Assembly (NCBI GenBank): GCA_039027015.1
Contig: JBCCLG010000002.1
Location: 1-40,859, forward strand
Reading direction: 5' to 3'
Source: Acidobacteriota bacterium
GTDB lineage: Bacteria > Acidobacteriota > Thermoanaerobaculia > Multivoradales > J023
Length of the DNA: 40,859 nt
Positions 28,745-32,095 of the stretch are shown here, piece by piece (the first letter of the stretch is position 1; each line of letters starts with the position of its first letter). Both the position numbers and the translations under genes were made by a program. The notes beneath the pieces were generated by a model. That model was given only the letters and a program-made list of their open reading frames with translations, searched no databases and had not been told where the DNA came from.

Positions 28745-30022
28745 ATGGTCATGGATACCAACACTCCTCTCCGCGGCTCGGCGTTCTCCGCCCTCTTGGC
28801 CGCCCTCGTTCTGCTGCTCGGCCCAGCTCCCGCCTGGGCCGGCGAAGGCGAACCGCGAGGAGAAAGCCAGGCGGTGAACTTCTCGGCGGCTCTCGCCGGG
28901 CTGATGTTCGATCCGGCCACGGCGGACGGCAACGGCGGCCCGGGAGGAGCGCCCAACGGCCTGCTCGACGCGGCGGAGATGGCCCTGGTGGCGGCGGCTC
29001 TTGAGGGCGGCAACCCCCGGGCAGCGGCCGCGTGGGAGCAGGCGCTGGGCTCGGCAACCCGCGATCTCGAGGCGCTGGCCGCCTCCTTCCCCACCGCCCC
29101 GGTGGCGGTGGCCGGCTACGCCATGATCGGCACGCCGCAGTCTCTCGAGTCGATCGGGGCCATGACCGCCAACTTCGGCGCCCCCCTCGAGGGCGACTAT
29201 TCCCTGGCGAGCGCCCTCGGCGACCTCTTCGGCCCCGAAGGAGACGCCGACGGCGACGGCAGCACCAACCGCCGGGAATACCGCGCCGCTCGCGCCGCGG
29301 CGGGCCGGGATTTCGCCTCGGGGGCGTGGATCGCCGACTACGCCGCCGCCGCCCTCGACGCGGACCGGCGCCCGGCACCGGGCGAGATCGCCGTCGACGA
29401 CGCGGAGAAGCCGGCCCGCCTGACCCTGGGCGTCGTCCTCTACCCGGGCTTCGAGGTGCTCGACGTCTACGGCCCGCTCGAGATGTGGGGGTACGTTCCC
29501 GAATTCAGGATCGTGACCGTCGCCGAGCGGGCCGGCCCCGTGGCCTCATCTCACGGCGTTGAGACCGTGGCCGAGCACTCGTTCGAAAACTCTCCCGATC
29601 TCGACCTCTTGATGGTGCCCGGAGGCGCCGGCACCTTCGTCTCCCTGCGAAGCGAGCCGATGCTCGACTACCTGCGGCGCGCCCACGCCTCCGCGCAGGT
29701 CACCACCTCGGTCTGCACCGGCGCCATGCTCCTCGCCGCCGCCGGCATCCTCGACGGCCGCCCGGCGACCTCGAATAAGCTTCACTTCCAGAAGGCGCGC
29801 GAGGTCAGCGACCGGGTGCGCTGGATCGAGAAAGCGCGCTGGGTTGACGACGGCGACGTGATCACCTCCTCAGGAGTTTCCGCGGGCATCGATATGGCGC
29901 TGCACCTAGTCGCTCGGCTCTACGGCCGCGAGCGGGCCGAGCAGCTGGCCCAATGGACCGAATACACCTGGAATAGCGACCCTTCAAACGACCCCTTCGT
30001 CTCCTCGATCGGCGCCCACTAG
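28745..30022 (+). CDS. Secreted DJ-1/PfpI-family protein with an N-terminal extension of about 200 aa
   Basis: Signal peptide (ALLAALVLLLGPAPAWA). DJ-1 core: LGVVLYPGFEVLDVYGP, nucleophile elbow SVCTGAMLLAAAG, and SSGVSAGIDMAL. It starts 21 nt after paralog 3. Confidence 0.85.
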   Translation: MVMDTNTPLRGSAFSALLAALVLLLGPAPAWAGEGEPRGESQAVNFSAALAGLMFDPATADGNGGPGGAPNGLLDAAEMALVAAALEGGNPRAAAAWEQALGSATRDLEALAASFPTAPVAVAGYAMIGTPQSLESIGAMTANFGAPLEGDYSLASALGDLFGPEGDADGDGSTNRREYRAARAAAGRDFASGAWIADYAAAALDADRRPAPGEIAVDDAEKPARLTLGVVLYPGFEVLDVYGPLEMWGYVPEFRIVTVAERAGPVASSHGVETVAEHSFENSPDLDLLMVPGGAGTFVSLRSEPMLDYLRRAHASAQVTTSVCTGAMLLAAAGILDGRPATSNKLHFQKAREVSDRVRWIEKARWVDDGDVITSSGVSAGIDMALHLVARLYGRERAEQLAQWTEYTWNSDPSNDPFVSSIGAH

Positions 30023-30097
30023 CCTCTGTCGGGCACGCTTTCTCCTCTATCCGCTCGGCCGTCTATCGCTGTGCTGCCGGCCTTCCGCGGTCAGAGA

Positions 30098-30152
30098 CCC
30101 GCCAGGATCCTGCGGCTTTGGCGGGTTGAGGCCCGCCAGGATCCTGCGGCTT
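30098..30152. repeat. 21-nt perfect direct repeat, 2 copies, 34-nt period
   Basis: cccgccaggatcctgcggctt at 30098-30118 and again at 30132-30152, read directly from the sequence. Confidence 0.9.
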
Positions 30153-30184
30153 AAGCCGCCGGTGCTCTCCTCGCGGCCCCCTCA

Positions 30185-30711
30185 GAACTCGCGCGGCCAA
30201 CCGACTGGATGCCGAAGTCCCCCAAAGGGGCGGGCTCTTCGCCACGCTGGGTCCGTCGACTCCCAGAGGGTCTCCCGCGTCGCCTTTCGCCTCCTACCCG
30301 AGTCCGTCTCCAAAGATGAGACCGCCGCGCTCAGACAAGCTTCGGGGGACCGCGAGGAGAGCATCCGGCTCCGGGTGACTGCAAACGCCAGCGCCTTGGA
30401 CTCGCGAGATCTCCTGATCCCTCGAGCTTTCCTTGGATAGGAAGCCTCAGGTGCTCCAGGGGGCTCATCGTCTCCTGGCTGAGCCGGCAGGTTCTCCTTC
30501 TGGGGTAAGGCTGCGACTCCTGGAGCGACCGAGAAGCCCGGGGGATCGAGCACGGGTCCGAGCCTGTTTGAGCGCGGCGGTCCCATCTCTGGAGTCGGGC
30601 GGGGCATTCTGATGATCCCGCGAGACCGCACGATTCGAGGTGGACTCGAAGCGGAGAGGAATCCACCTCCTCGGCGGTCTCCAGCGTCGAGTCGGTTGGC
30701 CGCGCGAGTTC
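30185..30711. repeat. 527-bp imperfect palindrome (two diverged copies of a unit of about 260 nt in inverted orientation)
   Basis: A 22-nt perfect inverted repeat: gaactcgcgcggccaaccgact at 30185-30206 against its complement at 30690-30711. A second pair, 30306-30340 against 30562-30596, has a 14-nt perfect core (gaccgccgcgctca). A third weaker pair is gctccgggtgactgca against tgcgactcctggagc. All share a symmetry centre near 30448-30451. No credible ORF. Confidence 0.75.
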
Positions 30712-30813
30712 GAGGACCCGCGCGCAGACCCCCGGGCGCCGCAGCGGAAGGCGGTTCAGCAGCACCCGCCGAGCACGAACGACCCGCCAGGGCATAACCG
30801 ACCCGGTCAAACC

Positions 30814-31911
30814 TCAGATCGCCGAGCCCACCGAAGCCTCGTCGCGCAGCCGCTCCGCCTGAAAGTGCTGGGTCAAAGGCTCGATCACCGGATCGAGAGT
30901 GCCCTGCAGAATGGCCTGAAGCTGATGAACGGTCAGGCCGATGCGATGGTCGGTCACCCGATTCTGCGGAAAGTTGTACGTGCGAATTTTCTCCGAGCGA
31001 TCGCCCGATCCCACCATCTTGCGACGCTCCGCGGACTGCTCGGCGTGCGCCTTCTCCTGCTCGGCCTGCAGCAGACGCGATTTGAGCACCCGCAGAGCCT
31101 TCGCCTTATTCTTGATCTGGCTGCGCTCGTCCTGGCAGCTGACCACCAAACCGGTGGGCAGGTGGGTGAGGCGCACGGCGCTGTAGGTGGTGTTGACCCC
31201 CTGACCGCCGGGCCCCGAAGCGCAGAAGCGGTCGACCCGCAGGTCTTTTTCCTCGACCTCGATCTCCACTTCCTCGGCCTCGGGCATCACGGCCACGGTC
31301 ACGGCCGACGTGTGGATGCGCCCCGAGGCTTCGGTTTGAGGCACCCGCTGCACTCGGTGCACGCCGCCCTCGAACTTCAGCCGGCTGAAGGCACCGCGCC
31401 CCTCGACGATGGCGTCGACCTCTTTGTAGCCGCCGACCTCGGACTCCGAGAGGCCCAGGATGTCGATCCTCCAGCCCTGGGCGTCGGCGTAGCGGCTGTA
31501 CATGCGAAACAGCTCCGAGGCGAAGAGGGTCGCCTCGTCGCCGCCGGTGCCGGCGCGAATCTCGAGCACCACGTTGCGCGAGTCGTTGGGATCCTTGGGA
31601 ATCAGCTCAACCCGGATCGCCTCCGCCAGCTCCTCGAGCTGGGCGTCGAGGGCGGCCTGCTCCTCGAGTGCGACGCCGTGCAGCTCGTCGTCCGGCGTCA
31701 GCTCGCTGAGCATCTCGGCCGTACCCTCCCGCTCCTCGTGCACCTTCTTAAAGCGTCCGAAGAGCTGGACCACGTCGTCGATCTCGGTGAGGGCCTTGTG
31801 GGCCTCGCGATAGCTCGCGGGGTCGGAGACCACCTCGGGATCGGCCATCCGGCGGGTCAGGTCGAGGTGAGTGGCCTCGAGCTGCTCTAGTTTTTTCAGC
31901 TGCTGCAGCAT
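30814..31911 (-). CDS. prfA: Peptide chain release factor 1
   Basis: GGQ motif (SGPGGQGVNTT), RVQRVPQTEASGRIHTSA (PxT-type RF1 recognition loop) and a typical RF1 N-terminus from MLQQLKKLEQ. A TTG at 31932 is an alternative start. Confidence 0.95.
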   Translation of the reverse strand: MLQQLKKLEQLEATHLDLTRRMADPEVVSDPASYREAHKALTEIDDVVQLFGRFKKVHEEREGTAEMLSELTPDDELHGVALEEQAALDAQLEELAEAIRVELIPKDPNDSRNVVLEIRAGTGGDEATLFASELFRMYSRYADAQGWRIDILGLSESEVGGYKEVDAIVEGRGAFSRLKFEGGVHRVQRVPQTEASGRIHTSAVTVAVMPEAEEVEIEVEEKDLRVDRFCASGPGGQGVNTTYSAVRLTHLPTGLVVSCQDERSQIKNKAKALRVLKSRLLQAEQEKAHAEQSAERRKMVGSGDRSEKIRTYNFPQNRVTDHRIGLTVHQLQAILQGTLDPVIEPLTQHFQAERLRDEASVGSAI

Positions 31912-32095
31912 GTTTGTATGGGGTTCCTTCAATCGCCGCGCGGACGAGACTCGAGTGAGAGAGCGGAAGATTCCTCATCTCTGCGCCTGAGGGTATTCAA
32001 CAGAGGCGGTGTCCCTCAGGCCGAGCAACGCCATTCTAGCTCCCGACATTCCCGCCGCCCGGTCCGCCGCTCCCGACCGGGATACAGTAACGGCT

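What the first reader, a model, noticed from the sequence alone, without database searches (positions are those of the whole stretch)
30185..30711. 527-bp imperfect palindrome with conserved sequence islands in an ORF-free gap downstream of prfA
The roughly 790-bp gap between the convergent DJ-1 gene and prfA has no credible ORF. It contains three inverted-repeat pairs:
- A perfect 22-nt pair (30185-30206 and 30690-30711).
- A 35-nt pair with about 5 mismatches and a 14-nt perfect core (30306-30340 and 30562-30596).
- A weaker pair around 30368-30385 and 30510-30526.

All are equidistant from one centre near 30448-30451. The segments between these islands have similar length but are much more diverged.

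The region is therefore either a long imperfect hairpin or two diverged inverted copies of a unit of about 260 nt. Conservation in islands hints at selection on specific motifs. Possible identities:
- A MITE-like non-autonomous element with 22-bp terminal inverted repeats.
- A pair of convergent or divergent sRNA genes.
- A large structured RNA.
- A symmetric protein-binding locus.

I could not match it to RNase P, tmRNA, SRP or 6S RNA signatures by eye.
Basis: seen in the sequence. Interest (0 to 1): 0.65.

Follow-up and report, generated by a model that had tools for sequence, protein, structure and literature searches.

The report
Two-armed copy of a MITE family
The 527-bp palindrome is one copy of a non-coding repeat present at least 75 times in this genome, built from two inverted ~270-nt modules whose relatives in sister species are ordinary miniature transposons, so it is most likely selfish DNA and not an RNA gene.

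Summary
The palindrome is real: a perfect 22-nt pair, a 38-nt pair at 87%, and folding z-scores near -10 on both strands. It is not a unique locus. The genome holds at least 75 hits to a ~270-300-nt non-coding unit. The window element is a left-type (L) unit, a variable centre and an inverted right-type (R) unit.

Each unit is closed by its own 16-25-bp stem, which shows strong compensatory change (94% paired, 0/500 shuffles). An element's own L and R arms match no better than arms from different elements, so the long 527-bp hairpin is a by-product.

There is no coding signal, Rfam match or Pfam match.

BLAST and exact patterns found the family nowhere else. A covariance model found homologues in 18 of 40 related genomes. 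In two sister species these are ~215-bp elements with terminal inverted repeats and an 8-bp target-site duplication (consensus CTAGCTAG; 0/5000 permutations), often abutting stop codons.

Verdict: a diverged, dimeric member of a MITE family. This is a new member of a known kind, of modest interest. The transposase and any host role remain unknown.

The parts
30082..30149 (+). Outer flank of the left unit: two tandem 34-nt copies (82% alike), each with a CAGGATCCTG palindrome. Other copies carry variable tandem repeats of 13-50 nt at this position.
   Evidence: (D1, I15)
30096..30106 (.). GACCCGCCAGG, left copy of an 11-nt direct repeat bracketing the element. It is a candidate target-site duplication for this copy only.
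   Evidence: (D10), 60: an LCS of 11 or more occurs in 1 of 118 mismatched flank pairs. Other copies show none.
30158..30181 (+). Left (L) unit, 5' arm of the closing stem (GCCGGTGCTCTCCTCGCGGCCCCC).
   Evidence: (I4, 95% complementary)
30182..30343 (+). Left unit core.
30344..30369 (+). Left unit, 3' arm of the closing stem (GGGGGACCGCGAGGAGAGCATCCGGC).
30370..30508 (.). Variable centre, including the decayed inner tail of the left unit. It is about 65-70% alike in the short ~520-550-bp elements on contigs C437, C241 and C349. In other copies it is replaced by ~56-nt tandem repeats or partial extra units.
30509..30535 (-). Right (R) unit, inner tail (TTCTCGGTCGCTCCAGGAGTCGCAGCC on the - strand).
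30536..30558 (-). Right unit, 3' arm of the closing stem (GACCCGTGCTCGATCCCCCGGGC on the - strand). It contains the family-wide CCGTGCTCG block.
   Evidence: (I3)
30559..30714 (-). Right unit core, read on the - strand: GAACTCGC..., SD-like CCGAGGAGGTGGA, and CTCCAGAGATG...GCTCAAACAGGCTC.
   Evidence: best model hit in the genome, 221 bits
30715..30737 (-). Right unit, 5' arm of the closing stem (GCCCGGGGGTCTGCGCGCGGGTC on the - strand). It contains the family-wide CTGCGCGCG block.
30738..30767 (-). Right unit outer flank (GGGTGCTGCTGAACCGCCTTCCGCTGCGGC on the - strand), conserved among R copies.
30781..30791 (.). GACCCGCCAGG, right copy of the 11-nt direct repeat.

Best explanation
The region is one copy of a non-coding, non-autonomous mobile-element family (a MITE family).

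**What the sequence shows**
- The basic unit is a ~215-300-nt imperfect palindrome. Its two halves form a long closing stem around a core.
- The core carries the conserved blocks CTGCGCGCG, AACTCGC, GCTCAGACA and CCGTGCTCG.
- In this genome the family has split into left (L), right (R) and a second right-arm type (T).
- It occurs mostly as head-to-head dimers: an L unit, a variable centre and an inverted R or T unit. The window element is one of these dimers.
- In two sister species the homologous unit has terminal inverted repeats and 8-bp target-site duplications at CTAGCTAG-like sites.

**What is inferred**
- A transposase supplied in trans binds the terminal inverted repeats and inserts the element with an 8-bp staggered cut.
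- The target contains TAG/CTA and is rare in a 68% G+C genome except at gene ends. Copies therefore accumulate immediately after stop codons, as here between the convergent DJ-1/PfpI and RF-1 genes.
- The window copy is probably an old, immobile relic.
- Any effect on the neighbouring genes, such as a stem-loop in read-through transcripts, would be secondary.
For: **Copy number and architecture**
- 82 BLAST matches and 75 profile hits on 51 contigs of the window's own genome.
- 44 of the 75 hits lie within 400 nt of a contig end, against 16% of the genome. This is what repeats that break an assembly look like.
- L and R subfamilies have conserved flanks and variable centres.
- Deletion derivatives and solo units exist.
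- A third, ~56-nt tandem module occurs only inside elements.

**Not a gene**
- No coding signal.
- No Pfam family above its cut-off.
- No Rfam match.

**The closing stem is real**
- 94% of cells are paired.
- 14 of 21 pairs show double changes, against at most 7 in the slid controls.
- 0 of 500 shuffles reach the observed values.
- The stem is partly kept in relatives: 83.5% paired, 0 of 500 shuffles on three of five measures.

**Relatives**
- The covariance model scores 35-51 bits in 18 of 40 related genomes. Up to 41 matches are reported per genome, and only 54 candidates per genome were scored.
- Noise is at most 11.5 bits in 32 kb searched with filters off.
- The four conserved sequence blocks are shared.

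**Mobility signature in sister genomes G002 and G006**
- Element ends are sharp, with terminal inverted repeats GGSYCCRTCCAG...CTGGAYGGRMC.
- An 8-bp flanking direct repeat differs between copies but matches within a copy. It is 8/8 in four copies. The within-copy mean is 4.75 matches of 8, against 3.89 between copies, with 0 of 5000 permutations as high.

**Position**
- All copies examined in the window's genome lie between genes.
- Outer ends face gene 3' ends in 27 of 38 cases (p = 0.014).
- In G002 and G006 many copies abut stop codons.
Against: - No autonomous element with matching ends and no candidate transposase was found.
- In the window's own genome the true termini are fuzzy, because variable tandem repeats sit at the outer flanks.
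- No consistent target-site duplication was seen there. Only the window copy has an 11-nt flanking direct repeat, which is not significant after 13 comparisons.
- L copies are only about 79% identical, yet 73 of 226 columns are invariant where 16 are expected. This could mean selection acting on each copy and not only on active master copies.
- The G.U and U.G pairs in the CTGCGCGCGG/CCGTGCTCG stem are conserved across genera. That hints at a strand-specific single-stranded form (RNA or ssDNA), which a plain double-strand cut-and-paste model does not need.
- Covariance-model E-values are rough.
Confidence: 0.78

Rival explanations
1. The units are host-useful structured elements. When transcribed by read-through from the upstream gene they would form a long stem-loop in the 3' UTR. 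That stem-loop would act as a terminator, insulator or RNA-stabilising structure between genes, or as a regulatory RNA carrying an SD-like (or anti-SD-like) motif. Each copy would be kept by selection.
For: - The closing stem covaries strongly.
- Wobble pairs on one strand are conserved across genera.
- Rates vary strongly among sites, with invariant blocks such as AAGGAGGTGG.
- Outer ends are biased towards gene 3' ends.
- No canonical terminators are predicted in the gap.
Against: - No Rfam family matches.
- Beyond the closing stem and two 2-3-bp hairpins without compensatory change, no interior helix is kept, and the proposed interior hairpin fails its test.
- Predicted structures are equally good on both strands.
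- Singleton changes are spread evenly over columns, as expected for neutral decay after insertion.
- Deletion derivatives and truncated copies are common.
- 11 of 38 outer ends face gene starts, and solo units show no clear orientation rule.
- The distribution among related genomes is patchy.
- Homologues carry target-site duplications.
Confidence: 0.12
2. The units are REP/REPIN-like. They would be single-strand DNA hairpins mobilised as inverted doublets by a domesticated HUH (Y1, RAYT-like) transposase. This genome has at least 8 paralogues of such a protein.
For: - Inverted doublets together with decayed singlets resemble the REPIN pattern described in PMC3116915.
- G.T pairs are conserved on one strand.
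- 8-9 Y1_Tnp-like genes of about 300 aa are present.
Against: - Units are about ten times the size of REPs.
- No unit lies next to any Y1 gene: there are no profile hits, and the model scores at most 11.5 bits there.
- Five of the nine Y1 loci have a different palindrome, GGTG(C/G)(C/T)(A/T)GGCACC, within 700 nt.
- Homologues in sister species have terminal inverted repeats and 8-bp target-site duplications. From general knowledge of IS200/IS605-type enzymes, HUH single-strand transposition does not make these.
Confidence: 0.07
3. The palindrome is a chance feature of G+C-rich intergenic DNA, or a decayed protein gene.
For: High-GC DNA folds well and contains long spurious ORFs.
Against: - Folding z-scores are -10 against dinucleotide shuffles.
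- There are at least 75 related copies.
- There is no codon periodicity and no Pfam match above its cut-off.
Confidence: 0.01

Closest known systems
Bacterial MITEs in general (for example Correia elements, ERIC/RU-1, RUP, Nezha; reviews PMC10969869, PMC2229807, PMC3184786)
   Same: - Short, non-coding, multi-copy and intergenic.
- Highly base-paired, imperfect palindromes.
- Terminal inverted repeats and target-site duplications, shown here for the homologues in two sister species.
- No transposase gene of their own.
   Different: - The window copy is a ~690-bp head-to-head dimer of two ~270-300-nt units with distinct left and right subfamilies.
- It is G+C-rich (68%), not A+T-rich.
- Its termini and target duplication cannot be defined cleanly in this genome.
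- No parent IS is known.
BOX-type composite repeats of streptococci (boxA-(boxB)n-boxC; S. suis boxE/boxF modules of 115 and 133 nt; PMC3049150)
   Same: - Modular build: two different terminal modules enclose a variable number of tandem internal modules (~56-nt repeats in the elements on contigs C26, C121, C817 and C633).
- Predicted to fold as a stem-loop if transcribed.
- The mobilising enzyme is unknown.
   Different: - There is no sequence relation.
- The terminal modules here are larger, are inverted copies of one another, and each has its own closing stem.
- The host is a high-GC bacterium.
REPINs (REP doublets forming hairpins) with RAYT transposases (PMC3116915)
   Same: - Inverted doublets appear to be the common form, with singlets looking like relics.
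- The family persists in related genomes.
- HUH/Y1 genes are present in the genome.
   Different: - Units are about 10 times longer.
- Units are not found next to the Y1 genes.
- Homologues have terminal inverted repeats and 8-bp target-site duplications.

Membership tests
MITE | Small (under about 1 kb) and non-coding | tested here: met
   - Elements are about 480-940 bp between the AACTCGC anchors of the two arms, and units are about 270-300 nt.
- There is no codon periodicity, stops occur in all frames, and 1-nt indels are common.
- There are no Pfam matches above cut-off.
MITE | Many dispersed copies in one genome | tested here: met
   - 75 unit hits on 51 contigs of the window's genome.
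- Dozens of copies per genome in several relatives.
MITE | Terminal inverted repeats | tested here: inconclusive
   - In G002 and G006 the ends are clear: GGSYCCRTCCAG...CTGGAYGGRMC.
- In the window's genome the L and R arms are inverted homologues over about 270 nt.
- The exact termini there are blurred by tandem repeats.
MITE | Target-site duplication flanking each copy | tested here: inconclusive
   - Met for the homologues in G002 and G006: an 8-bp duplication with consensus CTAGCTAG, within-copy mean 4.75 of 8 against 3.89 between copies, and 0 of 5000 permutations as high.
- In the window's genome only the window copy has an 11-nt flanking direct repeat. The other 12 comparisons are at chance level.
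MITE | A related autonomous IS with the same ends | not tested
   - Nothing transposase-like lies beside solo units or inside long elements.
- Whole relatives' genomes could not be scanned for long elements bounded by the same terminal repeats.
REPIN/RAYT system | Short (about 20-40 nt) REP palindromes, with the cognate RAYT gene flanked by them | tested here: not met
   - Units are 215-300 nt.
- No unit lies within the Y1 loci.
Any described RNA family (Rfam 15) | Match to a curated covariance model | tested here: not met
   No match at E <= 1 over 29900-30900 on either strand.
BOX-type composite repeat | Distinct terminal modules around a variable tandem array of internal modules | tested here: met
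   - The pattern is an L unit, a centre and an R or T unit.
- The ~56-nt tandem module occurs only inside elements.
- This is a resemblance of architecture only. No sequence homology was tested or expected.

The most novel reading that the evidence does not exclude
The family has been domesticated. Each hairpin-closed unit, placed directly after a stop codon, would work as a lineage-specific terminator, insulator or 3'-UTR RNA module lacking a U-tract. It would possibly act through its conserved SD-like AAGGAGGTGG and CTCC motifs. It would be kept by selection at dozens of loci across a bacterial family, and the head-to-head dimers would serve as bidirectional terminators between convergent genes.
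Probability: 0.12. Interest if true: 0.6.

Novelty: new member of a known kind. Interest (0 to 1): 0.3.

Why it matters
- The finding explains an odd 790-bp gene-free gap.
- It probably also explains part of why this metagenome-assembled genome is so fragmented. 44 of 75 unit hits lie within 400 nt of a contig end, against 16% of the genome.
- It defines a repeat family that BLAST and exact patterns missed in relatives but a covariance model found. The family includes clean MITEs that land on CTAG-rich sites at stop codons in a high-GC lineage.
- That could make the family useful as a strain-typing and assembly-masking marker.
- It is also a test case for how target preference places mobile DNA at gene ends.
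- It is not a new kind of system.

Tried and rejected
**Searches that found nothing**
- Rfam search at E <= 1: nothing.
- BLAST of the unit against 30 relatives: nothing convincing.
- Exact-pattern scan of one genome per species: one chance hit in coding DNA.
- The same kind of pattern over 401 genomes of the class: hits only in the window's own genome.
- Metagenome pattern scan: 21 hits, about the number I expected by chance. None resembles the unit by profile beyond the pattern stretch itself.

**Empty site at the orthologous locus**
- The neighbours of the RF-1 gene are not syntenic in the genus.
- Exact look-up of the RF-1 protein found nothing on record.

**Structure**
- Coding hypothesis for outward-reading small ORFs ending at the conserved TGA: rejected.
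- An interior 'variable hairpin' that looked compensatory by eye: RNAalifold predicts no pairs, and the pair count equals the shuffles.
- Strand assignment from G.U against A.C counts and from folding energies: undecided.
- Selection on the long L:R hairpin: rejected.

**Mobilising enzyme and ends**
- Link to the Y1/HUH genes: rejected.
- TnpB: absent.
- Target-site duplications at the outer ends in the window's genome: not found apart from the window copy.
- The idea that each unit is flanked by a CCCGG duplication: dropped, because three copies change towards complementarity instead.

Full report
**1. The observation**

The sequence between the DJ-1/PfpI gene (ORF 28745-30022, + strand) and the RF-1-type release-factor gene (30814-31932, - strand) was read directly.
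- The perfect 22-nt inverted pair at 30185-30206 and 30690-30711 is there. The repeat finder extends it to 70-nt arms at 73% complementarity.
- The second island is recovered as 38-nt arms at 87% (30304-30341 and 30561-30598).
- The third pair is not recovered at the stated coordinates.
- Folded as RNA, both strands are about 10 standard deviations more stable than dinucleotide-preserving shuffles.
- ORFs of 104-159 aa cross the region. They match no Pfam family above its cut-off.

**2. It is a repeat, and larger than described**

The 527 bp give 82 BLAST matches in the window's own 6.57-Mb, 1301-contig genome. Iterated nhmmer finds 75 hits to a unit of roughly 200 nt on 51 contigs.
The 22-mer is therefore internal, and the feature runs from about 30082/30116 to about 30767.
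- The 22-mer is perfect only in this copy.
- Units fall into a left (L) type, a right (R) type and a second right-arm (T) type.
- Most elements are an L unit, a variable centre and an inverted R or T unit. They span about 480-940 bp between the AACTCGC anchors of the two arms.
- Solo units, truncated copies and internal-deletion derivatives also occur.
- In four elements the centre holds tandem copies of a ~56-nt module found nowhere else in the genome.
- 44 of 75 hits lie within 400 nt of a contig end, against 16% of the genome. The true copy number is therefore higher, and the repeats help to break the assembly.

**3. It is neither a gene nor a known RNA**
- Alignments of 25 L and 17 R units show no three-base periodicity of variation. 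They have stop codons in every frame and many 1-nt indels.
- Rfam gives nothing at E <= 1.
- No sigma-70-like promoter or intrinsic terminator is predicted.

**4. Structure**

Each unit carries its own inverted repeat. A 16-25-bp closing stem encloses about 165 nt: 30158-30181 with 30344-30369 for L, and 30715-30737 with 30536-30558 for R.
- The stem sequences differ between subfamilies and sub-lineages, but the changes are matched on both arms. Examples are ATCC/GGAT, CTCC/GGAG and CTCTCGTCTCGGTCCCCC/GGGGGACCGAGACGAGAG.
- On a 40-unit alignment RNAalifold keeps essentially only this stem.
- Pair counting gives 94% paired cells and 14 of 21 pairs with changes on both sides, against at most 7 in the slid controls. 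The covariation score is 0.44 against 0.06-0.17, and 0 of 500 shuffles are as high.
- An interior hairpin that looked compensatory by eye failed the same test.
- Predicted structures are equally good on both strands, so the strand is undecided.
An element's own L and R are no more alike (0.53-0.65) than L and R from different elements (mean 0.58). The 527-bp palindrome is a by-product of two related units lying head to head.

**5. Evolution within the genome**
- L copies average 79% identity.
- Substitutions are very unevenly spread. 73 of 226 columns are invariant where 16 are expected, with an index of dispersion of 3.1.
- Bases seen only once are spread evenly over the columns.
- Together these fit constraint on active master copies followed by neutral decay. 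They do not exclude selection on individual copies.

**6. Position**
- All copies examined lie between genes.
- Using a crude GC3-based gene caller, outer ends face a gene's 3' end in 27 of 38 cases (p = 0.014).

**7. Relatives**

BLAST against 30 relatives, an exact pattern over one genome per species, and a looser pattern over 401 genomes of the class and over metagenome contigs all found nothing outside the window's genome except chance hits.

A covariance model built from the 40-unit alignment changed this.
- 18 of 40 related genomes have matches of 35-51 bits.
- Up to 41 matches are reported per genome, and only 54 candidates per genome were scored.
- The noise level is at most 11.5 bits in 32 kb searched with filters off.
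- The matches are about 160 nt long and have a shorter centre. They share the blocks CTGCGCGCG, AACTCGC, GCTCAGACA and CCGTGCTCG.
- They partly keep the closing stem, including conserved G.U and U.G pairs.

**8. The homologues are MITEs**

I aligned 22 copies from genome G002 and 18 from G006 with 100-nt flanks.
- The ends are sharp, with terminal inverted repeats GGSYCCRTCCAGAAATG...CTGGAYGGRMC.
- Immediately outside them is an 8-bp direct repeat with consensus CTAGCTAG.
- This 8-mer varies from copy to copy but agrees within a copy. Examples are CTAGGTAG/CTAGGTAG, CTCGCTAG/CTCGCTAG and CTAGCTGG/CTAGCTGG.
- The within-copy mean is 4.75 matches of 8, against 3.89 for mismatched pairs, and 0 of 5000 permutations are as high. 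That is a target-site duplication.
- Many copies sit so that the stop codon of the flanking gene appears to lie in or next to the duplicated target. This is my reading of the distances, not a direct check. Upstream same-sense genes end 28-48 nt before the model hit, and the hit starts about 30 nt inside the element.

**9. Interpretation**

The window element is a diverged, dimeric member of this MITE family. The likely mechanism is inferred, not shown:
- A trans-acting transposase makes an 8-bp staggered cut at CTAG-rich palindromic targets.
- In a 68% G+C genome such targets are largely confined to gene ends.

No transposase has been identified.
- The at least 8 Y1/HUH paralogues of this genome are not associated with the units.
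- TnpB is absent.

In the window copy an 11-nt direct repeat (GACCCGCCAGG at 30096 and 30781) brackets the element and may be its target duplication. On its own it is not significant after multiple testing.

A host role, such as a terminator, insulator or 3'-UTR structure, cannot be excluded. It is the most interesting remaining reading, but no result here requires it.

**10. Limits**
- Covariance-model E-values are rough.
- Gene calls around the copies are heuristic.
- The organism's name is withheld.

Noticed in passing
own genome contigs C617, C42, C1099, C249, C18, C1194, C32, C29, C529 (loci L134-L141, L037): There are at least 8 paralogous genes of about 300 aa with a weak Y1_Tnp/IS200-like domain (PF01797, E 6e-8 to 3e-4). 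They share 66-84% DNA identity in the coding part only. Five of the nine loci have a GGTG(C/G)(C/T)(A/T)GGCACC palindrome within 700 nt. This looks like a separate RAYT/REP-like system, unusual for having many paralogues.
   Followed up: partly
window 30082-30149: A 34-nt tandem duplication sits at the outer flank. Other copies have 13-50-nt tandem repeats, in variable number, at the same position (for example contigs C963, C817, C1036, C436). This suggests slippage between short GGGGCTGC-type direct repeats.
   Followed up: partly
own genome C26:11137-11495, C121:317-543, C817:111-200, C633:3537-3615: A ~56-nt tandem module is found only in the centres of elements. It behaves like a boxB-type third module.
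   Followed up: partly
relatives G004:C132:15046-15388, G007:C2:20211-20550, G001:C626:2344-2866: In some relatives the homologous units lie as direct tandem pairs 22-58 nt apart, not as inverted pairs. The closest relative (G001) has full-length 233-nt matches.
   Followed up: no
window 28745-30022: The DJ-1/PfpI domain occupies only residues 230-390 of a 425-aa ORF. The roughly 230-residue N-terminal part has no Pfam match. A second DJ-1-like gene (by eye, not scanned) also sits next to a repeat unit on contig C58.
   Followed up: no
own genome C7:21627-21733, C794:56-180, C90:~3868: Miniature derivatives of the family exist. Some are two inverted outer flanks with little or nothing between them. 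One has an outer flank joined directly to the inner tail, a deletion between short (G/A)TCGC repeats.
   Followed up: partly
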